From an uncultured Verrucomicrobiota bacterium (GTDB lineage: Bacteria; Verrucomicrobiota; Kiritimatiellia; CAIQIC01; Lenti-01): a stretch of DNA of 64,000 nucleotides. Positions 21,577-30,540 of the stretch are shown here, one piece after another. Both the position numbers and the translations under genes were made by a program. Each line of letters starts with the position of its first letter. Positions within the stretch are counted from its first letter, which is position 1. Location of the stretch: positions 42,002 to 106,001 of the forward strand of contig CAYMTY010000003.1 in assembly GCA_964393515.1 (NCBI GenBank), written 5' to 3'. A model generated the notes under the pieces. That model saw nothing but the letters and a program-made list of their open reading frames with translations, was not told the origin of the DNA and did not search any database.

Positions 21577-22659
21577 TCAGGGATCGTCGGCGGGTTCTGC
21601 TCCCGCGGGGCTGCGCTCGAAACGCGGATCGTTCTCGTCGAAACGGAAAACGATCTCCTGTTCCCGGTCCAGGTCGAGCCGGGCGTTGAAGTCGTCGTGG
21701 GTGTCGGCGGTGAACGCGGCCGCAGCCGGATCGGTGACCAGCCGGGAACCGCCATTGACGCGGAACTTGTATTCGTGGCGGCCGGGACCGAGCCGCTGGC
21801 GCGCTTCCCAGATGCCGGCCCCGGTCCGCGCCAGCGGCAAGATCCCCTCCCAGTCGTCCAGGAAGCTGCCCATGAGCTCCACGCGGTTGATCTGGGCCGG
21901 AAGCCGGATGCGCGGCAGGACGCAGCGCATTTCCGGAGGGGTCTTCTCCTCCGGCGTGATTTCGGCCGTCGCATGAACCCGGTCGTAGCCGGGCGCCGCG
22001 ATGCGCACGTCGTAGCGGTTGACCGGCAGTTCGATGGCGAAGCGGCCTTCCGCATCGGTTTGGGCGCGCCAGGTGGCGCGCGCTTCGACCGGTCCCCCGG
22101 CCACGGCCGGGCGGGCCCGGATGCGGATGCCGGCGTGCACGGGCCGGCGGCCGTCCCAGGTTTCCACGACGCCGCCCAGGGTCCGCCGGAGCGCCGCCAG
22201 TTCCCCAACGGCCTGTTGCGCCAGCTGCGGGAAGCGGGCCTGCACGGCGGCGCGCCATTCCGCCGCCGGCCGCGCGGGTTCCGCGCCGGCGGTTTCCTCC
22301 TCGGCCATGCGCAACAGGGCGCGCGCGGCGGCCTCCTGCACCTCCCGCACTTCGGCCGGCGCCTCGGCCGGGGCGGCCAGCAGCTCGAGCTGCCGCGCGG
22401 CGGCCTCGTTCCGGCGGCCCAGCAGTTCCAGGCACAGCCCCGCGCGCCACCGCGCCCGGGCCGCGAGCCCGGCGCCGGCGGCGGGATCGGCCGCGACCTG
22501 TTCGTACGCCGCGCAGGCCGCGGCGGGATCGCCCGCCCCGCGCTCCAGGAACAGGGCGTTTTGATAGGCCTCCGGCGGCGGAACGGCCGCGGCCAGCGCC
22601 GCGCCGGCCGCCAGGATCGCGCCGGCGTTCAGAAGTCCAAATGGAAGGCGGATTTTCAT
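21577..22659 (-). CDS. Secreted protein with TPR-like region, carboxypeptidase-regulatory-like domain and C-terminal CBM48/early-set-like domain
   Basis: Signal peptide MKIRLPFGLLNAGAILAAGAALAAA; DAEGRFAIELPVNRYDVRIAAPGY; VELMGSFLDDWEG...HEYKFRVNG. ATGA overlap with the upstream response regulator. Confidence 0.55.
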   Translation of the reverse strand: MKIRLPFGLLNAGAILAAGAALAAAVPPPEAYQNALFLERGAGDPAAACAAYEQVAADPAAGAGLAARARWRAGLCLELLGRRNEAAARQLELLAAPAEAPAEVREVQEAAARALLRMAEEETAGAEPARPAAEWRAAVQARFPQLAQQAVGELAALRRTLGGVVETWDGRRPVHAGIRIRARPAVAGGPVEARATWRAQTDAEGRFAIELPVNRYDVRIAAPGYDRVHATAEITPEEKTPPEMRCVLPRIRLPAQINRVELMGSFLDDWEGILPLARTGAGIWEARQRLGPGRHEYKFRVNGGSRLVTDPAAAAFTADTHDDFNARLDLDREQEIVFRFDENDPRFERSPAGAEPADDP

Positions 22660-23342
22660 CGCTTGAACTCGTAGCCGTGGGTGCGGACGGTCAACAGGTG
22701 CTCGGGCCGGCGCGGATCGCGCTCGATGCGCTGGCGCAGGGTGGTCACGAAGCGGTCCACGGTGCGGTCGGTCCCCTCGTAGTCGGCTCCCCACACGTGG
22801 TCCAGCAACTCCGCGCGCGTGAACGCCCGGCCCGGATGGAGCACCAGATACTCCAGCAGCGCGTACTCCCGCGGCGTGAGCTCCACGGCCTGCTCCCCGC
22901 GGCGCAGGACCCGCGCCGCCACGTCCAGCACGTGCCGGCCGAAGGCGATCCGCGGCGCCGACCCCCGCAGCGTCGCGCGCAGCAGGAGCGCCTTGATCCG
23001 CGCCACCAGCGTTTCCATCTTGAACGGCTTGCGCACGAAATCGTCCGCGCCGAGCTGGAAGCTGAGCAGCTCGTCCTCGTCGCCGGTCTTGGCCGTCAGC
23101 ACCAGGACCGGCACACCCAGGTTGCGGCGGCGCAGCTCCTGGCAGACCTCGAACCCGCTCCGGCCGGGCAGCATGACGTCCAGCAGGACGAGGTCGGGGC
23201 GCTCGGCCTGCGCCACGCGCAGCGCCTCGTCGCCGTCGCCCGCGGACACGACCGCGTATCCGTAGTCCGGAAGCGCGATTTCCAGGGCGGTGCGCAACGG
23301 CAGGTGGTCTTCCACCACGAGAATTTTCTTGCGAACGTTCAT
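22656..23342 (-). CDS. OmpR-family response regulator
   Basis: Receiver domain (DD, D in LLDVMLP, K in KPF) plus winged-helix C-terminus (LTPREYALLEYL...GYEF). Confidence 0.9.
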   Translation of the reverse strand: MNVRKKILVVEDHLPLRTALEIALPDYGYAVVSAGDGDEALRVAQAERPDLVLLDVMLPGRSGFEVCQELRRRNLGVPVLVLTAKTGDEDELLSFQLGADDFVRKPFKMETLVARIKALLLRATLRGSAPRIAFGRHVLDVAARVLRRGEQAVELTPREYALLEYLVLHPGRAFTRAELLDHVWGADYEGTDRTVDRFVTTLRQRIERDPRRPEHLLTVRTHGYEFKR

Positions 23343-25411
23343 GGCTGGCCTCCGGTTTCCGGAGCCAGCGGCAGCCGGATTTCAAACACGGCCCCCTCGC
23401 CCGGCGCCGAACGGGCCGTGACCTCACCCCCGTGGGCGCGCACCAGTCCCCGCACGATCGCCAATCCGAGCCCCAGGCCCGGCACCCGCGCCGCGAGACG
23501 GCGGTCGGCCCGAAAGTACGGCGTGAACAGGTGGCGCAGCGTGCGCGCATCCATGCCCGGCCCGTCATCGGCCACCTCCAGCACGGCCTCATCCCCGGCG
23601 CGGCGCAGCGCCAGGCGCACGTCCACCGGCCCGGCGCCGTGCTTCACCGCATTCTCGACCAGGTTGCGCACGATCTCCCCGAGCGCCGCGCGGTCGAATT
23701 CGCCGGCATAGGCGCCGGGCGCGAAGGTGAACGCCAGCCGGCCGGCGTCCACGCCGGTTTCGGCCGGCAGCCGGCGGACGATCTCCGCCAGCCAGTCATC
23801 CAGGCGGCCCGGCTCCCGGTCCAGCCGCATCGTTCCCGCGCGCTGCCGCGCGAAATCCAGCAGCCGGTCGCTGAGCCGCACCAGCCGCCGGACCTCGTCG
23901 CGCAGCAGGGTGCGCACCTGCGCGTCCGTGGCCGGCTCCGCCGCCGCGCCGCGCCGCGCCAAGGTGTCGGTCAGCACGGCCAGGGAGGCGATGGGGGTTT
24001 TCAACTCGTGGCTGATGCGGTCCACCACGTCGGCCTGCAACGCGGCGACGCGCAGCGAACGCCGCAGATAGGCGAACGGCAAGAGTAGCCCCAGCAGGGC
24101 CAGGATGACGGCGCCGCCCAGGAGCGCCGCCCGGGTTTTCGATTGCGAAGCCGCCAGCGTGGCCCACAGCGAAGCGGATTCCAGCCGGTATTGGAGCGCC
24201 CAGTCGTCCAACGGCGCCGGCAGCGGCTGGCGCATCGCGGCGGCGTCCCCGGTCCCCGGCCGGGCCGGCGTAATCCATTCGGCGCGGCCTCCCAACCGGG
24301 CCACCAGTTCGCGCCGCGCCGGCTCCAGCAGGCCGGCCCGCAGGGCCGCCGGGTCGCTCTCAAAGGCAAGCCGGGCGCCGCCGGGCAGCGTCGCGCGGGT
24401 ATCCACCAGCAACCGGGTTCCCCCGCTCACGGCCGCGGGCAACGGCACGGCCTCGAAATCGTGCTCCCCCGGGAAAGCGGGAAGCGGAAACGGCCCCGGG
24501 CCCTGTTCGCGGATGAAATTCTCGAGCGCGGCGCGGGCGGCCGCCAGCCGTTCCACCCGCTCCCGGGCCGCGCGCTGCTCCTCCGCCTCCGCTTCCGGCC
24601 AGGCCGGCAGGCGCGCCACCACGGTTTCGAGTTCATCGAGGCCCAGGTCCAGGCCGCGCTCTTCGCTGGCGGCCAGCAAGGCTTGGCCCCAGCGCCGGGC
24701 GCGGTCTTCGTCGCCGGCCTGTTGCGCCAGTTCAACGGCCTGCAGCAAAGGCAGCACCGGCGGCGCCTCGGCGGCCTCGGCAAACGCAGCCAGCATGCGC
24801 TCGTAATGATCCAGCGCCGCGGGCAGGTCTCCGAGTCGCTGCGCGCACCAGGACATTTCCGCCCACAGGGCGGCGCGCACGCCGGCCGGCGTGCGCGGTT
24901 CGGCCACCACCCGCCGGTAAGGCTCCAAGGCGCGCGCGGGATCGTTTTCCACCCACAGCGCGCGCCGGGCCGCCTGCAGGTCCGCCCGGGCCGGGTGCAC
25001 GGTTGACAGGCGCGGCAGGTCGTCCGCCGGCAGCCGGCCGGCCCGCGGCCCGACCAGCCGGCCCGCCGCATCCAGCGCCAGCACCGCCCGGATGCCGTCC
25101 CGTGCCAGTTCCGGCCGCTGCGCCTCGATCCAAAAGGCCGGGACGGACGGCGGCAGCGCGCGCAAGGGCCCCGCCGCCCGCGCCAGCCAGTTGTCCAGCC
25201 GGCGCCGGACCTCCCGGCCGGTGTCTTGCAATTCATGGCGGCAGGCCTCCCGCTGCTGCGCCCGGGCCGCCTCGTGCAGGCTGCGCACGCTCAACCAGGC
25301 CAGGAAGACCAGCAGGATGCACGGCGCCACGACAAAGACGACCAGCGCCGCCATCAGGCGCCGGACTTCGCGGCGGGAATATAGTTGCGCACCCATCGTG
25401 GAACCCAGCAT
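23339..25411 (-). CDS. Sensor histidine kinase with large TPR-like periplasmic domain
   Basis: TM, ~400-aa periplasmic region, H-box ISHELKTPIASL, HATPase_c N/G boxes. Confidence 0.85.
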   Translation of the reverse strand: MLGSTMGAQLYSRREVRRLMAALVVFVVAPCILLVFLAWLSVRSLHEAARAQQREACRHELQDTGREVRRRLDNWLARAAGPLRALPPSVPAFWIEAQRPELARDGIRAVLALDAAGRLVGPRAGRLPADDLPRLSTVHPARADLQAARRALWVENDPARALEPYRRVVAEPRTPAGVRAALWAEMSWCAQRLGDLPAALDHYERMLAAFAEAAEAPPVLPLLQAVELAQQAGDEDRARRWGQALLAASEERGLDLGLDELETVVARLPAWPEAEAEEQRAARERVERLAAARAALENFIREQGPGPFPLPAFPGEHDFEAVPLPAAVSGGTRLLVDTRATLPGGARLAFESDPAALRAGLLEPARRELVARLGGRAEWITPARPGTGDAAAMRQPLPAPLDDWALQYRLESASLWATLAASQSKTRAALLGGAVILALLGLLLPFAYLRRSLRVAALQADVVDRISHELKTPIASLAVLTDTLARRGAAAEPATDAQVRTLLRDEVRRLVRLSDRLLDFARQRAGTMRLDREPGRLDDWLAEIVRRLPAETGVDAGRLAFTFAPGAYAGEFDRAALGEIVRNLVENAVKHGAGPVDVRLALRRAGDEAVLEVADDGPGMDARTLRHLFTPYFRADRRLAARVPGLGLGLAIVRGLVRAHGGEVTARSAPGEGAVFEIRLPLAPETGGQP

Positions 25412-25424
25412 TCCATCCGGATGT

Positions 25425-25480
25425 TACCGGATTGTTACCGGAAATCCGCTCAAAAACATGCAAACGGTAACAATCCGGTA
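25425..25480. promoter_or_regulatory. Perfect 16-bp inverted repeat (TACCGGATTGTTACCG ... CGGTAACAATCCGGTA, 24-bp spacer) in the divergent promoter region
   Basis: Seen directly between the HK start (25411) and the phosphoesterase start (25526). Confidence 0.5.
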
Positions 25481-25525
25481 GCAATGAGATGGCAGGCTGG
25501 CCGCGGAAAACAAGGAGAACGGCCC

Positions 25526-28500
25526 ATGAAATCCATCCGATTCCCGCCGCGAATGCATATCGCCCTGCTGCTGGCCGCGGCGTGCGCCGCGGGTTCCGCC
25601 GAGGCCGCGCTCGTGCGCGGACCCTACCTCCAGATGGGCCATTTCACCAACCGGGCCACCGTGGTCTGGCGCACGGATTCCTCCGCCGACAGCGCGGTGG
25701 ACTACGGCCTCACCCCCGCCTACGGCATGACCGCCACCGGAACCAGCGGCTACCAGCACGAAGTGACGCTCACCGGCCTGGGGCCCGGCACCACCTACTT
25801 CTACCGCGTCCGCAGCGGGGGCGTCCCGCTCGCCACCAACAGCTTCCGCAGCGCCAAGGCCCCCGGCGCCCCCTTCCGCATCGGCGTCTTCAGCGACGCC
25901 CACCAGGGCGGCTCCGCCGCCATCGGCAACCTCCTCGCCCTGGTCGCGCCCGACCTGCTCCTCGCCGCCGGCGATGTCACCGACGACGGCCTCTATTCCG
26001 ACCTGGACAACAACCTGTTCTCGAAGATGGGCGCCGTCCTGGCCGCGGCGCCGCTCTACTGGACCCCCGGCAACCACGACGTCCGCGACGGCTTCGCCGC
26101 CTGCCGGGAGGCGTTCGTCCTGCCCGACAACGAACTGAGCTACTCGTTCGAATACGCCGACGCCCTGATCGTCTCGCTCAACGCCGAGGACCTGCCCGGC
26201 CCCGCCTGGCTCGCCTCCACCCTCGCCACTTCGTCCAAGCCGTGGAAAATCGTCATGTTCCACGAACCCGCCTATTCGCCCGACGGCGGCCACGGCGAGC
26301 ATGAAACCATTCGCGACCAGTACGTGCCGGTGATGGAGCAGCACGGCGTGCAGCTCACCCTCTCCGGCCACAACCACTTCTACTGGCGCAGCGCGCCCAT
26401 CCACGGCATCACCCATCTGATTTCCGGCCCGTCCGGCAACCGCACCCGCGAAACCGGCGGCATCCCCTGCTATTCCCAATGGGCGGTCAACGGCACCGCG
26501 GCCCAGACCTTCATCGTGCTCGACATCGCCGGCACCGTCCTGCGCATCCGCACCTACGACGCCCTCGGCAACTGCCTCGACGAGGCCGCCGTGGACCGCG
26601 CCTGCCCCTTCGCGCTGGACGGGCAGCTCGACGCCGCGGCCGCCCAGGTGACCGCCCGCGGCGGCGGCCAGACCCTCTGGGCCGCGCAATCGAACGGCTA
26701 TCTCTACGTGGCCACCCAGGACGCCGGCGAAGGCCAAGACGCCTTCCTCTTCCTCGCCAGCGCCCCCGACGCCCTCACCAACGCCGCCCCGTGGGGCAAG
26801 GCCGGAACCGCCCCGGCCCATGACGCGTTCCTCGCCGACGAAAACGACAACAACTACAGCCGCGGCTTCGCCGAGGACGGCCTGGCGGCCGATGTCGCCC
26901 TGGTGCGCACCGCCACGCCCTGGTGCAACGGCGGCGTGCTCGAAGGCGTGATCGACCTGAATGCCTATTTCGGCGGCGCCGTGCCGGATTCGGTCTTTCT
27001 GGCGGCCGCCCTCTACGCCAACGGCGCGGGCGGCGCGCTCAGCGCCGCTTCCCAATGCCCCGCCGGCAACGGCGACGCCAACCTCGACGCGGGCGAAATG
27101 TTCGAAATCGAGTTGGCCGACTCCGGCGGCCCAGCCGGGCCCGCCCCCGCCGCCACCTTCGCGCCCGCCGCCCCGGCTGACTGCGGCCAGCTCGCCGTCC
27201 TCTTCAACGCCGCGACCTCCGCCCTCGCCACCGCAACGACCGTCACCGCGTTTTATCATTTCTCCACCAATGACGACGACTGGGCCTCCGCCGCAATGAC
27301 CCGCACCGGCACCAACACCTTCTCCGTCACATTCGCCACCCTCCCCGACAATGCCCCCCAGTGCGAGGTCTGCTTCACCGACGGCGTCAACTGGGAGAAC
27401 AACGGCGGCGCCAACTGGCAGGTCGCCATCCGCGACTGCGAGGCGCCCCAGACCGTCGACGGCGTCACCCTGGTGCCGGGCGTGCCGGTCGCCGGCCACG
27501 CGGTCACCGTCACCTACAATCCCGCCGGCCGCCCCCTGGCCGGCGCCGGCGCCCTCAACCTCCACCGCGGCTACAACCGGACCGAGGGCTGGACCCCCGT
27601 GCCCGGCGTTTCCATGGCGCCGGCCGGCGCGGAGTGGACCCACACCTACACCATTCCCCCGGCCGCCACCGAAATCTCCCTGTGCTTCAACGACGGCACC
27701 ACTTGGGACAACCGCGGCGGCGCCGATTGGATCTTCGCCGTGGTCCCCAGCGACCTCCCGCCCGTGCCGGACGGCGTCGTCATCACGAATCCCGCCGCCG
27801 CCACGGTCCATGTCGCCCACGCCACCGCCCAGTTCGCCTGCCAGGGCACCGCCGGCACCAATCTGGCCGGACCGCTCTCCTGGACCAATCTCGCCACCGG
27901 CGGCGGCGGCACCTTCGCGCGCGAGTCGTATTGGCTGCAGGAGATCCCCCTCGCCCCCGGCGACAATGAAATCCGGATTGCCGGCGTCATCGCCGGCACC
28001 GAGGCCGGCAGCGCCACCGCGGCGGTGGACCAGGCCGCCGCCTATGCCGCCTGGACCAACGGCAGCGCCCAGGGCGCCGGGTGGAGCGACGGCTGGGCCT
28101 GCACCGTTGCCGGCGCGACCGCCGGGCACTTCCTCGATGCCGGTTCCGCGAACTGCTCCGCCGGCAACCCCGCCTTCGGGCTCTGGGCCAACGGCGGCGC
28201 CACCGCCCGCGCCCGGCGCAGCCTCGCCGAACCCCTGCAACCCGGCGACACCTTCTCCTGGCAGTTCGACAACAACTGGATCCAGGACGGCGGCTCCGCC
28301 GGCTTCTCCCTGGAAAACGCCGCCGGCGAACCCCTGCTCATCCTCTACTTCCTCGGCGGCGAACTCGCCTACAAGCTGCAGAACGGCGATCCCGAAATCC
28401 GCGACACCGGCATTTCCTGGACCGGCAGCGGCCTCGCGGTCGCGTTCACTTTAGATTCGGAAACCGGCTACACGCTCGCGCTCAACGGGGCCGCCTTCAC

Positions 28501-28927
28501 CGGCACCCTGGCCGCCGCCGCGTCCGGCACCGCCGTCCGCCAGTTCCAGGTCTGGAACTACAACTGCGGATCCGACATGGAACGCAACATCTACTTCAAC
28601 GACCTCCAACTCGTCCGCCCCGAACCGGGCGGCGGGGAGGCCTACAGCACCGCCACCCTCCACGTCGTCCGCGACGCGGACGGCGAACCGGCGCCCGTCA
28701 TCACCGGCCTCGCGGCGAGCGGCGCGGAAGGCCTGTGCTGCGGCCTTGCGGAAAGCGTCGCCGGCGCCGCCTACGCCATCTATGCCACCGAAACCCTGGC
28801 CCCCACCCAGAACTGGCAGGTGGTCGCCGGCACCGTCCAGATCGGCACGGGCGGCGCGCTGGAACTGCGCCTCACAAACGGCCTCCCGGCGGTCGGCTAC
28901 TACCGCATCGGCTTCACGCCCCCGTGA
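25526..28927 (+). CDS. Large secreted metallophosphoesterase (purple acid phosphatase-like N-terminus) with CBM-like repeats and Ala/Gly-rich C-terminal region
   Basis: Signal peptide MKSIRFPPRMHIALLLAAACAAGSAEA; AGGAG RBS; metallophos motifs (GDxxDxG as GDVTDDG, GNHD, GHNHFY); repeated W-x-N-x-G-G-A-N/D-W modules. Confidence 0.75.
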   Translation: MKSIRFPPRMHIALLLAAACAAGSAEAALVRGPYLQMGHFTNRATVVWRTDSSADSAVDYGLTPAYGMTATGTSGYQHEVTLTGLGPGTTYFYRVRSGGVPLATNSFRSAKAPGAPFRIGVFSDAHQGGSAAIGNLLALVAPDLLLAAGDVTDDGLYSDLDNNLFSKMGAVLAAAPLYWTPGNHDVRDGFAACREAFVLPDNELSYSFEYADALIVSLNAEDLPGPAWLASTLATSSKPWKIVMFHEPAYSPDGGHGEHETIRDQYVPVMEQHGVQLTLSGHNHFYWRSAPIHGITHLISGPSGNRTRETGGIPCYSQWAVNGTAAQTFIVLDIAGTVLRIRTYDALGNCLDEAAVDRACPFALDGQLDAAAAQVTARGGGQTLWAAQSNGYLYVATQDAGEGQDAFLFLASAPDALTNAAPWGKAGTAPAHDAFLADENDNNYSRGFAEDGLAADVALVRTATPWCNGGVLEGVIDLNAYFGGAVPDSVFLAAALYANGAGGALSAASQCPAGNGDANLDAGEMFEIELADSGGPAGPAPAATFAPAAPADCGQLAVLFNAATSALATATTVTAFYHFSTNDDDWASAAMTRTGTNTFSVTFATLPDNAPQCEVCFTDGVNWENNGGANWQVAIRDCEAPQTVDGVTLVPGVPVAGHAVTVTYNPAGRPLAGAGALNLHRGYNRTEGWTPVPGVSMAPAGAEWTHTYTIPPAATEISLCFNDGTTWDNRGGADWIFAVVPSDLPPVPDGVVITNPAAATVHVAHATAQFACQGTAGTNLAGPLSWTNLATGGGGTFARESYWLQEIPLAPGDNEIRIAGVIAGTEAGSATAAVDQAAAYAAWTNGSAQGAGWSDGWACTVAGATAGHFLDAGSANCSAGNPAFGLWANGGATARARRSLAEPLQPGDTFSWQFDNNWIQDGGSAGFSLENAAGEPLLILYFLGGELAYKLQNGDPEIRDTGISWTGSGLAVAFTLDSETGYTLALNGAAFTGTLAAAASGTAVRQFQVWNYNCGSDMERNIYFNDLQLVRPEPGGGEAYSTATLHVVRDADGEPAPVITGLAASGAEGLCCGLAESVAGAAYAIYATETLAPTQNWQVVAGTVQIGTGGALELRLTNGLPAVGYYRIGFTPP

Positions 28928-28940
28928 CGTCTCGCCGCGT

Positions 28941-28981
28941 TTTTCCACACGGTGGAAAAATATTTTCCACGGTGTGGAAAA
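28941..28981. repeat. Two tandem 19-bp palindromes TTTTCCAC-N3-GTGGAAAA (same family as the 51224-51378 array)
   Basis: Seen directly between convergent gene ends; followed by a CTCCGC flank as in the larger array. Confidence 0.55.
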
Positions 28982-28993
28982 CTCCGCCCGCGG

Positions 28994-29806
28994 CTACCAG
29001 AAGCGCCAGAAATGGTGCACGGGGCCGTGGCCCTGGCCCAGGCGGTAGTCCGCCCCCGCGCGGATGGCGCCGGCGATGTACTCCTTGGCATTGCGCACGG
29101 CGACTTCGATGCCGGCCCCCTGTGCCAGGTTCGCGGCGATGGCCGAGGACAGCGTACAGCCCGTGCCGTGGTTGTTGCGGGTCTCCACCCGTACACCCGG
29201 CAGGCGCACGATGCGCTTCTCTTCCCCGAGATACAGGCAGTCGTCGCTGCCGCCGCCCGCAAGATGGCCGCCCTTCACCAGCACGTTTTGGCAGCGGAGC
29301 CGGGCCAGTTCGGTCGCCGCGCCGGGCAGTTCGTCGAGCCGTGAAATCCGGTGGCGCAGCAGCTCTTCAGCCTCTGGAATATTCGGCGTCAGGATCTCCG
29401 CCAGGGGGATCAGGAAACTGACCAGCGCGGCCACGGCGTCGTCTTGCAGCAGCCGGTCGCCGCTCTGTGCGATCATCACGGGATCGAGCACGATGTGCGC
29501 CACTTGGTGATCCCGGAGCTTCCGCGCCACGGTTTCGATCAGCTCCGCCGAGTAGAGCATGCCGATCTTGACCGCATCCGCCCCGATGTCCGCAAGCACC
29601 GCATCAAGCTGCTGCGCCACGAACTTCACCGGCACCGGGTGGATCCCCGCCACGCCCTGCGTGTTCTGCGCGGTCAGCGCGGTGATCACGCTCAGGCCGT
29701 AGCACCCGTTGGCCGCGATGGTCTTCAGGTCGGCCTGGATGCCGGCTCCGCCGCCGCTGTCCGAGCCTGCAATCGTCAGCACCCGCCGATAGGTTTTACT
29801 GCTCAT
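28994..29806 (-). CDS. thiD: Hydroxymethylpyrimidine/phosphomethylpyrimidine kinase
   Basis: ThiD/PdxK ribokinase-like motifs (GSDSGGGAGIQADL, C-terminal GTGCTLSSAIAA). Confidence 0.9.
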   Translation of the reverse strand: MSSKTYRRVLTIAGSDSGGGAGIQADLKTIAANGCYGLSVITALTAQNTQGVAGIHPVPVKFVAQQLDAVLADIGADAVKIGMLYSAELIETVARKLRDHQVAHIVLDPVMIAQSGDRLLQDDAVAALVSFLIPLAEILTPNIPEAEELLRHRISRLDELPGAATELARLRCQNVLVKGGHLAGGGSDDCLYLGEEKRIVRLPGVRVETRNNHGTGCTLSSAIAANLAQGAGIEVAVRNAKEYIAGAIRAGADYRLGQGHGPVHHFWRFW

Positions 29807-29827: not shown

Positions 29828-29879
29828 GGATTATGGTATTTATAAATACCATAGTATGCTTTTTATAAATACCATAATC
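29828..29879. promoter_or_regulatory. AT-rich nested palindrome (perfect 20-bp ATGGTATTTATAAATACCAT plus outer GATTATGGTAT/ATACCATAATC arms) between thiE and thiD
   Basis: Seen directly; overlaps the thiE stop and precedes the thiD RBS. Confidence 0.4.
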
Positions 29880-30540
29880 ACCGTCCGTCCATTCCCGGGC
29901 GGCTCTTTTCCCGCGCCGCATCGATTTTCCGCCGCAGTTCCGCCGCCGCCATGCGCGGGTCCTCCGCCGCTACAATCGCCGACACCACGGCCACGCCGTC
30001 CGCCCCCGCCTGCACCACTTCCCGCGCGTTGCCCGCGTGGATGCCGCCGATGGCCACCAGCGGGATCTTCACGGCGGCACGAATCGCCTGCAGCCCCGCC
30101 AGGCCCAGCGGCGCGGCATGGTCCGTCTTCGTCGGCGTGGCGAACACCGGGCTGGCACCGAGGTAGTCCGCGCCCTCCCCCGCTGCGCGGACGGCATCCG
30201 CCACCGATTCCGCCGAGACTCCGATGATCCAGCCCGGCGGTCCCAGCCGGCGGGCGTCCGCTACGGGCAGATCTTGCTGCCCCAGATGCACCCCGTCCGC
30301 TTCCGCCGCCAGCGCAACATCCACGCGGTCGTTGATGATCAACGGCACGCCCAGCTCGCGCGTGGCTGCGCGCAGCGCGCGGGCCTCCGCCAGGAAGTCC
30401 CGCGTACCGCAGGCCTTTTCCCGCAACTGGACGCAGGTGACGCCGCCGGCCACCGCGGCGCGGACGATGTCCGCCAGGGGCCGGCCGCGCGCCAGTGCGC
30501 GGTCGGTCACGAGGTACAGCGTGTAGACGATGCGGGCCAT
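29878..30540 (-). CDS. thiE: Thiamine-phosphate synthase
   Basis: TIM-barrel ThiE sequence (YLVTD..., IGVS..., ADYLGASPVFATPTK, VAIGGI). Confidence 0.9.
   Translation of the reverse strand: MARIVYTLYLVTDRALARGRPLADIVRAAVAGGVTCVQLREKACGTRDFLAEARALRAATRELGVPLIINDRVDVALAAEADGVHLGQQDLPVADARRLGPPGWIIGVSAESVADAVRAAGEGADYLGASPVFATPTKTDHAAPLGLAGLQAIRAAVKIPLVAIGGIHAGNAREVVQAGADGVAVVSAIVAAEDPRMAAAELRRKIDAAREKSRPGMDGR

What the first reader, a model, noticed from the sequence alone, without database searches (positions are those of the whole stretch)
25425..25480. Perfect 16-bp inverted repeat in the divergent HK / phosphoesterase promoter region
TACCGGATTGTTACCG and its exact reverse complement are separated by 24 bp. 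Each arm also contains a TTACCGG direct repeat. The site lies 14 bp upstream of the histidine-kinase start and ~45 bp upstream of the large secreted phosphoesterase gene. It is a strong candidate operator, possibly for the adjacent OmpR-type regulator; this would provide autoregulation or control of the divergent gene.
Basis: seen in the sequence. Interest (0 to 1): 0.5.

Follow-up and report, generated by a model that had tools for sequence, protein, structure and literature searches.

The report
Response-regulator boxes in back-to-back promoters
The perfect inverted repeat is real, but it is made of four copies of an 11-bp unit that most likely bind the neighbouring two-component response regulator and drive two divergent promoters; this is a well-conserved but ordinary kind of bacterial control site, here in uncultured Verrucomicrobiota.

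Summary
The 16-bp perfect inverted repeat (25425-25440 / 25465-25480, 24-bp spacer) exists. No such repeat appeared in 150 shuffles of the window. It is the overlap of two 22-bp boxes, each made of two direct copies of an 11-bp unit, (T/A)TG(T/C)TACCGGA. The boxes lie in opposite orientation.

In 12 distinct lineages of uncultured Verrucomicrobiota (kinase identity down to 42%), both boxes are nearly invariant while the spacer and linkers vary. Five variable bases beyond each box lies an invariant TG-n-n-A-n-n-n-T, the signature of an extended -10 promoter element. That places each box at about -42 to -21 of its own promoter, the PHO-box position, with no -35 hexamer.

The boxes always accompany the kinase/regulator operon, whatever the divergent gene is. 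In one lineage a relocated phosphoesterase gene carries its own box at the same distance. About 393 kb around unrelated regulators has none. Variation in the arms mostly breaks hairpin pairing, so an RNA or DNA hairpin is not supported.

Best reading: the adjacent OmpR/PhoB-family regulator binds as two head-to-tail dimers and activates its own operon and the secreted phosphoesterase gene. Binding, transcription starts and the sign of regulation are inferred, not shown. This is a new member of a known kind.

The parts
25421..25442 (+). Kinase-proximal box: two 11-bp units, ATGTTACCGGA and TTGTTACCGGA. It lies at about -42 to -21 of the predicted kinase-operon promoter on the minus strand.
   Evidence: PWM 40.0 bits. 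17 of 22 columns are invariant in 11 lineages.
25463..25484 (-). Phosphoesterase-proximal box: two 11-bp units that read TTGCTACCGGA and TTGTTACCGTT on the minus strand. It lies at about -42 to -21 of the predicted phosphoesterase promoter.
   Evidence: PWM 34.8 bits. 13 of 22 columns are invariant.
25425..25480 (.). The perfect 16-bp inverted repeat as reported (arms 25425-25440 and 25465-25480). It is the overlap of the two oppositely oriented boxes.
25443..25462 (.). Spacer between the boxes. It is relatively A/T-rich. The 24 bp between the perfect arms is constant in length in 11 lineages and 5 bp longer in L019. The sequence is variable.
   Evidence: 2 of 20 columns invariant.
25490..25498 (+). 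Predicted extended -10 element of the phosphoesterase promoter: TG (25490-25491), one base, then hexamer CAGGCT (25493-25498). The transcription start is predicted near 25505.
   Evidence: TG, A(-11) and T(-7) are invariant or nearly so in 25 half-promoters, at a fixed offset from the box. Inferred; no mapped start.
25407..25415 (-). Predicted extended -10 element of the kinase operon on the minus strand: TG (25415-25414), one base, then hexamer AATGCT (25412-25407). The transcription start is predicted near 25400, which leaves a leader of about 4 nt.
   Evidence: same pattern and same offset. There are 8-11 nt between the hexamer and the ATG in all lineages. Inferred.
25512..25518 (+). Shine-Dalgarno sequence AAGGAGA of the phosphoesterase gene.
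   Evidence: Conserved in the main-group alignment of seven sequences; (A/C)AGGAGA in all main-group rows (L015 has CAGGAGA); absent in that form from L028 and the L019 remnant.
25526..28927 (+). Secreted metallophosphoesterase, 1133 aa, with a signal peptide, a purple-acid-phosphatase N-terminal domain and a Metallophos domain. Starch-binding-module hits appear in orthologues.
23339..25396 (-). Sensor histidine kinase, 685 aa. It has two hydrophobic segments flanking a region of about 390 aa that matches no Pfam family, followed by HisKA and HATPase_c domains.
22656..23342 (-). OmpR/PhoB-family response regulator, 228 aa (receiver domain plus winged-helix Trans_reg_C). This is the proposed binder.
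21577..22659 (-). Third gene of the operon: a secreted 360-aa protein with marginal CarboxypepD_reg and AMPK1_CBM (CBM48-like) hits.
   Evidence: Co-located with the kinase and regulator genes in every locus that extends that far.

Best explanation
The inverted repeat is a composite transcription-control site made of four copies of an 11-bp unit, (T/A)TG(T/C)TACCGGA. The units form two tandem pairs (22-bp boxes) that face away from each other. Each box sits at about -42 to -21 of its own promoter. Each promoter has an extended -10 element (TG-n-nAnnnT) and no -35 hexamer.

One promoter drives the operon for the kinase, the regulator and a secreted accessory protein, leftward. The other drives the secreted 1133-aa phosphoesterase gene, rightward.

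Proposed mechanism: the phosphorylated OmpR/PhoB-family regulator encoded next door binds each box as a head-to-tail dimer. It stands in for the missing -35 contact and recruits RNA polymerase, as PhoB and PhoP do at PHO boxes. That gives positive autoregulation together with co-induction of the phosphoesterase.

Shown here:
- the repeat structure;
- its conservation;
- its constant association with the two-component operon;
- the conserved TG/A/T pattern.

Inferred:
- which protein binds;
- the transcription start sites;
- activation rather than repression.
For: Repeat structure and conservation:
- The unit structure is 7-8 conserved bases plus 3-4 less conserved bases with an 11-bp period. 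This comes from 44 units and 25 half-promoters. It matches the definition of PHO boxes and the head-to-tail binding of this regulator family (PMC4415409; PMC11825685).
- A regulator of that family lies in the adjacent operon.
- Phylogenetic footprint: across 11 lineages with the same spacing, the left box has 17 of 22 invariant columns and the right box 13 of 22. The spacer has 2 of 20 and the linkers 0 of 9 (alignments). Kinase identity falls to 42% over this set.

Promoter signature:
- Five variable bases beyond each box, on both sides and in every lineage, come T (23/25), G (25/25), n, n, A (25/25), n, n, n, T (25/25). These are exactly the bases that matter most in an extended -10 element (established knowledge of sigma-70 promoters).
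- The box then ends 8-9 bp before the hexamer. This is close to the one-turn spacing of the Salmonella PhoP 'architecture I', which includes the autoregulated phoP promoter (PMC3335776).
- No canonical -35/-10 pair is present.

Association with the two-component system:
- The boxes stay upstream of the kinase operon when the divergent gene is a PEP-CTERM protein (L028 and L031).
- They also stay when the divergent gene is only a remnant (L019).
- In L019 a phosphoesterase homologue about 4 kb away has its own box 42 nt before its ATG. The window has 41 nt.

Specificity:
- There is no other tandem site above 14 bits in the 64-kb window.
- There is none in about 393 kb around regulators of 45% identity or less.

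The binder:
- The regulator is far more conserved than the kinase: 80-97% against 53-95% identity in the main group.
- Its recognition helix, GTDRTVDRFVTTLRQRIE, is almost unchanged across the nine main-group sequences: eight carry it exactly and L003 differs at two late positions (QHLE for QRIE), with one conservative D-to-E change in L012. This parallels the invariant motif.
Against: - No binding, footprint or expression data exist.
- The transcription starts are predicted from sequence only.
- The -10 hexamers are weak apart from A(-11) and T(-7).
- The predicted kinase transcript would have a leader of only about 2-5 nt, which is unusual.
- Relative to each nearby promoter, the TGTTAC reading points away from the -10 element. 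This is the opposite of the usual PhoB/PhoP 'direct' orientation, if this regulator reads its half-site in the same polarity, which is unknown.
- The outer units also contain TA(A/G)CA(T/A). That could itself act as a -10 element, in which case binding would repress.
- Motif and regulator co-vary only weakly, so a paralogous regulator cannot be excluded.
- No regulon member outside the immediate neighbourhood could be examined.
Confidence: 0.65

Rival explanations
1. Same protein and same boxes, but the regulator represses. Binding between -42 and -21, or over an alternative -10 inside the outer units, blocks RNA polymerase. That would give negative autoregulation and repression of the phosphoesterase until the signal removes the regulator.
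For: Extended -10 promoters can work without a -35 contact (established knowledge), so a protein sitting at -42 to -21 could hinder rather than help. The outer units carry TAACAT or TAGCA(A/T), with T and A invariant (positions 17-22). OmpR/PhoB-family proteins act as repressors at some promoters (PMC11825685).
Against: The alternative -10 lacks a conserved final T (16 of 25) and has no conserved -35 partner. It also leaves the invariant TG/A/T pattern outside the box unexplained. The predicted -10 hexamers are too weak (CAGGCT, AATGCT) for strong unaided promoters. The geometry matches known activated promoters (PMC3335776; PMC11825685).
Confidence: 0.15
2. The site is a real operator, but another protein binds it. 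That could be a paralogous OmpR-family regulator, such as a global phosphate regulator acting on a phosphatase gene. It could also be an unrelated multimeric factor that reads the inverted symmetry.
For: The target gene is a phosphoesterase, and JGI labelled one kinase orthologue 'PhoR'. The best NCBIfam match of the regulator is PhoB. With the boxes centred 42 bp apart they lie on the same DNA face, which could suit a tetramer.
Against: The PhoB and PhoR matches are far below the equivalog cut-offs: 203 against 296 bits and 117 against 334 bits, and the PhoR match covers the kinase core only. The site follows the kinase/regulator operon even where the divergent gene is not a phosphatase. No other regulator gene is conserved nearby. 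The spacing changes by 5 bp, half a turn, in L019, which argues against one rigid complex. The internal direct repeats do not fit a simple dimeric palindrome reader.
Confidence: 0.1
3. The inverted repeat acts as a nucleic-acid hairpin: an RNA stem-loop (attenuator, terminator or processing site) or a DNA cruciform.
For: Folded as RNA, 25405-25525 gives -50.9 kcal/mol with a z-score of -6.0.
Against: Any perfect repeat gives such a fold. Across 11 lineages, variation in the arms is mostly pair-breaking. There are 10 unpaired cells and 2 G-U against 1 compensatory change, and the covariation score is matched by 60 of 500 shuffles. The element lies between two divergent start codons 129 bp apart, so neither transcript should contain both arms. 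The loop length changes by 5 in L019. No Rfam family reaches its threshold.
Confidence: 0.03
4. Chance repeat or a dispersed repetitive or mobile element.
For: None beyond its repeat nature.
Against: None of 150 shuffles gave such a repeat. The motif occurs only at this site in 64 kb. It holds the same syntenic position in every orthologous locus.
Confidence: 0.01

Closest known systems
PHO box of PhoB (E. coli) and PhoP (Streptomyces, M. tuberculosis)
   Same: Both consist of two 11-nt direct repeat units, each with about 7 conserved and 4 less conserved bases. A head-to-tail dimer of an OmpR/PhoB-family regulator binds them. They overlap and replace the -35 region about one helical turn upstream of the -10 element. 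They often control secreted phosphatases and the regulator's own operon (PMC4415409; PMC11825685).
   Different: The motif differs: TGTTACC here, against CTGTCAT or GTTCACC. The regulator and kinase score far below the PhoB and PhoR equivalog cut-offs. The kinase has a sensor region of about 390 aa with no Pfam match instead of the PhoR layout. No pst or phoU genes are nearby. Two boxes are placed back-to-back for two promoters. The orientation of the half-site relative to the -10 element may be reversed.
Salmonella PhoP-activated promoters, architectures I and II (including the autoregulated phoP promoter)
   Same: The half-site is similar in sequence ((T/G)GTTTA-N5-(T/G)GTTTA against TGTTAC-N5-TGTTAC). 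The proximal box lies about one turn upstream of the -10 hexamer, with an optional second box further upstream (PMC3335776).
   Different: In architectures I and II the proximal box points toward the -10 hexamer. Here TGTTAC points away from the nearer -10 and toward the farther one. The organism, signal and targets are unrelated.
AdeR direct repeat between adeRS and adeABC (Acinetobacter baumannii)
   Same: An OmpR-family regulator binds a direct repeat in the intergenic region between its own operon and its divergently transcribed target operon (PMC5766154, abstract seen).
   Different: One direct repeat was reported there. Here there are two oppositely oriented tandem pairs. The target there is an efflux pump, not a secreted phosphoesterase.
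OmpR and RpaB (HLR1) sites with GTTAC(A) half-sites (recalled from my own knowledge, not tested here)
   Same: Tandem GTTAC-type half-sites with a 10-11 bp period. RpaB and OmpR are among the better NCBIfam matches of the regulator.
   Different: All these matches are far below the equivalog cut-offs. The flanking bases (TGTTACCGGA) and the genomic context are different.

Membership tests
Binding site of an OmpR/PhoB-family response regulator (tandem direct-repeat box) | Two or more direct repeats with a 10-11 bp period, each with a conserved core of about 6-7 bp followed by less conserved bases | tested here: met
   Four units with an 11-bp period and a core TG(T/C)TACC. In 44 units, T, A and C at unit positions 5-7 are 44/44 and positions 9-11 are variable. 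The definition is taken from PMC4415409.
Binding site of an OmpR/PhoB-family response regulator (tandem direct-repeat box) | A winged-helix (Trans_reg_C) response regulator is available, typically encoded next to the site | tested here: met
   Receiver domain plus Trans_reg_C at 22656-23342. The closest solved relatives are MtrA, RegX3, PhoP and KdpE. The gene lies in the operon headed by the left promoter in every locus.
Binding site of an OmpR/PhoB-family response regulator (tandem direct-repeat box) | Activator-type placement: the box overlaps or replaces the -35 region about one turn upstream of a -10 element | tested here: met
   An invariant TG-n-n-A-n-n-n-T begins 5 nt after each box in 25 half-promoters. 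This places the boxes at -42 to -21. No -35/-10 pair was found. The promoter is predicted from conservation, not mapped.
Binding site of an OmpR/PhoB-family response regulator (tandem direct-repeat box) | Specific binding by the phosphorylated regulator (EMSA or footprint) and regulator-dependent transcription | not testable with these tools
   Needs purified protein or genetics. All the organisms are uncultured metagenome-assembled genomes.
Canonical Pho regulon (PhoB/PhoR and PHO box) | The regulator and kinase are PhoB and PhoR orthologues | tested here: not met
   TIGR02154 PhoB scores 203.4 bits against a cut-off of 296.2. TIGR02966 PhoR scores 116.7 against 334.2 and aligns only to kinase residues 446-674.
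Canonical Pho regulon (PhoB/PhoR and PHO box) | The motif matches a described PHO box consensus (CTGTCAT or GTTCACC) | tested here: not met
   The core is TGTTACC. The consensus sequences are quoted from PMC4415409.
Palindromic operator of a dimeric repressor | Two half-sites in dyad symmetry, close enough for one dimer (centres about 10-20 bp apart) | tested here: not met
   The arm centres are 40 bp apart. Each arm is itself a direct repeat. The spacing changes by 5 bp in L019.
Structured RNA, terminator or attenuator hairpin | Base pairing preserved by compensatory changes, and both arms transcribed | tested here: not met
   1 compensatory change against 10 unpaired cells, and a covariation score within the shuffle range. 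The site lies between divergent start codons. No Rfam match reaches its threshold.
Sigma-54 promoter (suggested by TGGCA at 25490-25494) | GG at -24 and GC at -12 with fixed spacing on both promoters, plus an AAA+ enhancer-binding activator | tested here: not met
   The kinase-side element reads TGGAATGCTGGGTTCC, with no GC at the required position. L006 has TGCCAG. The regulator has no AAA+ domain.

The most novel reading that the evidence does not exclude
The four units may be the single switch of an undescribed envelope system in Verrucomicrobiota. Its components would be a sensor kinase with a large domain of no known family, a secreted CBM48-like accessory protein, and a 1133-aa secreted phosphoesterase with starch-binding-module hits. 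The accessory protein appears fused to a copy of the sensor domain in one lineage (L019 2281-4626). Such a system might sense or scavenge phosphorylated glucans.

In this reading two regulator dimers, held four helical turns apart on one DNA face, co-activate two promoters that lack a -35 element. One of these promoters produces a nearly leaderless kinase mRNA.
Probability: 0.15. Interest if true: 0.55.

Novelty: new member of a known kind. Interest (0 to 1): 0.3.

Why it matters
The result gives an exact, testable DNA motif and promoter layout for an uncharacterised two-component system in uncultured Verrucomicrobiota. Almost no regulator-to-site assignments exist for that phylum. The position-weight matrix can be used to find the regulon in complete genomes. 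The conserved TG-n-nAnnnT pattern is indirect evidence for extended -10 promoters, and for a near-leaderless transcript, in this lineage. Mechanistically it fits the established PhoB/PhoP/OmpR picture, so it adds an instance rather than a principle.

Tried and rejected
- **Sigma-54 reading** of TGGCAGG-N-TGG. Rejected: the kinase side and L006 lack the GG/GC pair, and the regulator has no AAA+ domain.
- **Third regulator half-site** as the explanation for the conserved flank. Rejected: the invariant T, G and A fall where the unit requires G, T and C.
- **-10 elements inside the outer units** (TAACAT, TAGCAA) or -35-like TTGTTA/TTGCTA with partners in the spacer. No conserved partner hexamer exists and the final T is not conserved. 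Kept only as part of the repression rival.
- **Canonical sigma-70 scan**: 0 sites.
- **ECF-type GGAAC/CGT promoter**: no conserved CGT at the right distance.
- **RNA hairpin**: no covariation and no Rfam family.
- **Regulon search**: nothing else in the window. Whole genomes of these organisms could not be read, so the regulon beyond about 10-kb flanks is unknown.
- **L021 and L022** (the P0020 and P0021 loci) turned out to be frameshifted copies of the L006 and L012 lineages and added nothing.
- **P0012** returned no DNA.
- **Co-variation of recognition helix and motif**: only weak. The low-GC subclade has DRF(I/V)TVLRQKIE and, wherever its boxes could be read (L019, L028, L031), TTATTAC units on the divergent-gene side. 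This does not prove who binds.

Full report
**1. The observation**

The sequence TACCGGATTGTTACCG lies at 25425-25440 and its exact reverse complement at 25465-25480, 24 bp apart. None of 150 dinucleotide-preserving shuffles of the 64-kb window contained a perfect inverted repeat of 16 bp or more with a loop of 60 or less. The repeat is therefore real and not chance.

The symmetry extends imperfectly to 36-nt arms (25405-25440 / 25465-25500, 81%). On the left there is an exact direct repeat, TGTTACCGGA, with 11-bp spacing. On the right the two copies are cTACCGG and TTACCGt.

**2. Gene context**

- To the left, on the minus strand, lies an operon of three genes.
  - The first is a histidine kinase with HisKA and HATPase_c domains. 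About 450 N-terminal residues match no Pfam family.
  - The second is a 228-aa OmpR/PhoB-family response regulator.
  - The third is a secreted 360-aa protein with marginal CarboxypepD_reg and AMPK1_CBM hits.
- To the right, on the plus strand, lies a 1133-aa secreted metallophosphoesterase.
- The kinase ORF's first ATG (25411) is not conserved. The conserved start is 25396, which orthologues use and which is followed by codon-like variation. The repeat therefore lies 29 bp, not 14 bp, from the kinase start.
- The regulator is not an equivalog of any named regulator (best match PhoB, 203 bits against a cut-off of 296). Its nearest solved relatives are MtrA, RegX3, PhoP and KdpE.

**3. Related loci**

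Kinase homologues from 95% down to 42% identity were recovered. All come from uncultured Verrucomicrobiota-type genome bins or metagenomes, many of them from wastewater.

The module of phosphoesterase, kinase, regulator and accessory protein is conserved, with an intergenic region of about 128 bp. Both halves of the repeat are nearly invariant in alignments, while neighbouring non-coding positions vary. Over 11 lineages with identical spacing, the invariant columns are:

| Segment | Invariant columns |
|---|---|
| Left box | 17 of 22 |
| Right box | 13 of 22 |
| Spacer | 2 of 20 |
| Two linkers | 0 of 9 |

**4. What the element is made of**

Forty-four units from eleven sequences give the 11-bp consensus (T/A)TG(T/C)TACCGGA. 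T, A and C at positions 5-7 are invariant and positions 9-11 are the most variable. The units form two tandem pairs of 22 bp each, 25421-25442 and 25463-25484, in opposite orientation.

A pair of 11-nt direct repeat units with about seven conserved and four less conserved bases is how PHO boxes are defined. It is also how OmpR/PhoB-family effector domains bind, head to tail (PMC4415409; PMC11825685). The perfect inverted repeat is the overlap of two such boxes.

**5. The conserved flanks**

I read each box toward its nearer gene and aligned 25 half-promoters: 12 lineages with two sides each, plus one extra box.

- After the box come five variable bases.
- Then come T (23/25), G (25/25), n, n, A (25/25), n, n, n, T (25/25), with the other positions free.
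- This is the pattern of an extended -10 element, TGnTAnnnT reduced to its critical TG, A(-11) and T(-7). That reading rests on established knowledge of sigma-70 promoters.
- In the window the elements are TG 25490-25491 with CAGGCT 25493-25498 on the plus strand. On the minus strand they are TG 25415-25414 with AATGCT 25412-25407.
- Both boxes then fall at -42 to -21, ending 8-9 bp before the hexamer, and no -35 hexamer is present. The canonical promoter scan finds nothing.

This is the layout of activator-dependent promoters of this regulator family. Examples are Salmonella PhoP architecture I, which includes the autoregulated phoP promoter (PMC3335776), and the PhoP complexes in which the tandem dimer displaces the sigma region 4/-35 contact (PMC11825685).

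The predicted starts are near 25505 and 25400. On the kinase side only 8-11 nt separate the hexamer from the ATG in all lineages, so the kinase mRNA would be nearly leaderless. These starts are inferences.

**6. Who binds**

The boxes follow the two-component operon rather than the phosphoesterase.

- In L028 and L031 (kinase 42%, regulator 65-67% identity) both boxes, the 24-bp spacing and both TG/A/T elements are kept. The divergent gene there encodes a PEP-CTERM secreted protein.
- In L019 (kinase 46%) both boxes remain upstream of the kinase, although only a 45-codon remnant resembling the phosphoesterase signal peptide is left beside them.
- Also in L019, a phosphoesterase homologue about 4 kb away carries its own tandem box 42 nt before its ATG. 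The window has 41 nt.
- A tandem matrix scan finds no other site above 14 bits in the window. It finds none in about 393 kb around 71 regulators of 45% identity or less.
- The regulator is much more conserved than the kinase, and its recognition helix is almost unchanged in the main group (eight of nine sequences identical).
- A low-GC subclade has the helix variant DRF(I/V)TVLRQKIE. Where its boxes could be read, the distal unit on the divergent-gene side reads TTATTAC. This co-variation is weak.

Together these points make the cognate regulator the most likely binder, but they do not prove it.

**7. Rivals**

- **Hairpin.** The fold energy is trivially strong. Arm variation is mostly pair-breaking, with 10 unpaired cells and 2 G-U against 1 compensatory change, and the covariation score lies within the shuffle range. 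The arms lie between divergent start codons. Rfam has no match at threshold.
- **Sigma-54, ECF or a third half-site** as readings of the flanks all fail on the invariant positions.
- **Repression instead of activation** cannot be excluded. The outer units contain TA(A/G)CA(T/A), and a protein at -42 to -21 of an extended -10 promoter could also hinder polymerase. This reading leaves the invariant TG/A/T pattern unexplained.
- **A paralogous regulator**, for example a true PhoB, cannot be excluded without whole genomes.

**8. Comparison, novelty and verdict**

The site works like a PHO box or PhoP box, but it is not a member of the Pho system. The regulator and kinase fail the equivalog cut-offs, the motif differs, and the kinase has a large sensor region of no known family. 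The divergent arrangement recalls AdeR between adeRS and adeABC (PMC5766154).

I rate it a new member of a known kind. It is a cleanly defined, strongly conserved regulator site with an inferred dual-promoter layout, in a phylum where such assignments are rare. It follows a familiar mechanism.

- direct repeats, not the palindrome, are the functional units;
- there are two back-to-back promoters;
- the kinase start is at 25396.

Interest 0.3.

Noticed in passing
window 29829-29879 (between thiE 29878-30540 and thiD 28994-29806, both on the minus strand): This is the only other perfect inverted repeat of 16 bp or more in the window. It has 18-bp arms (GATTATGGTATTTATAAA) with a 15-nt loop and is very AT-rich in a genome of about 69% G+C. 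It contains a perfect 22-bp palindrome, TATGGTATTTATAAATACCATA (29832-29853), 26-47 nt upstream of the thiD ATG, plus a direct copy of TATGGTATTTATAAA. The thiE-thiD intergenic region of L009 is also AT-rich and partly similar (CATACTGTGATATTTGCAAATAGCATAA). It could be an operator or an intercistronic hairpin.
   Followed up: partly
L019 2281-4626 (+): A 781-aa protein that joins a paralogue of the kinase's sensor region to a paralogue of the accessory protein. The sensor part is 31% identical to kinase residues 26-424. The accessory part is 35% identical to accessory-protein residues 18-346 and carries an AMPK1_CBM hit. It lies divergent from the relocated phosphoesterase homologue. It looks like a duplicated module that lost the kinase core and the regulator. 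As a fusion it hints that the sensor domain and the accessory protein work together.
   Followed up: partly
window 25526-28927 and 21577-22659; orthologues in L004, L009, L012: The phosphoesterase orthologues carry starch-binding-module hits (CBM_25, CBM53). The accessory protein has glycogen-binding AMPK1_CBM hits. In the window's own proteins these are at or below the Pfam cut-offs (CBM26 17.7 bits against 28.1; AMPK1_CBM 25.9 against 26.8). This may point to a glucan-linked substrate or signal, but the evidence is weak.
   Followed up: partly
window 25396-25415 (minus strand): If the predicted -10 element (25412-25407) is right, the kinase mRNA has a leader of only about 2-5 nt and no clear Shine-Dalgarno sequence. 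The divergent phosphoesterase gene has a strong conserved AAGGAGA.
   Followed up: partly
window 28932-28989: A hairpin-like sequence between the convergent stop codons of the phosphoesterase gene (28927) and thiD (28994). It surfaced only as sub-threshold miRNA-precursor matches on both strands in the Rfam scan. It is probably a bidirectional terminator.
   Followed up: no
L019 5761-5898 (minus strand of the locus): A 45-codon ORF next to the kinase-upstream boxes. Its product (…CCRLFFSFVVIALLATNAKLAADD) resembles the signal peptide of the relocated phosphoesterase homologue. About 450 bp with no convincing gene follows it. It looks like a remnant of a deleted phosphoesterase gene whose promoter and box survived.
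   Followed up: partly
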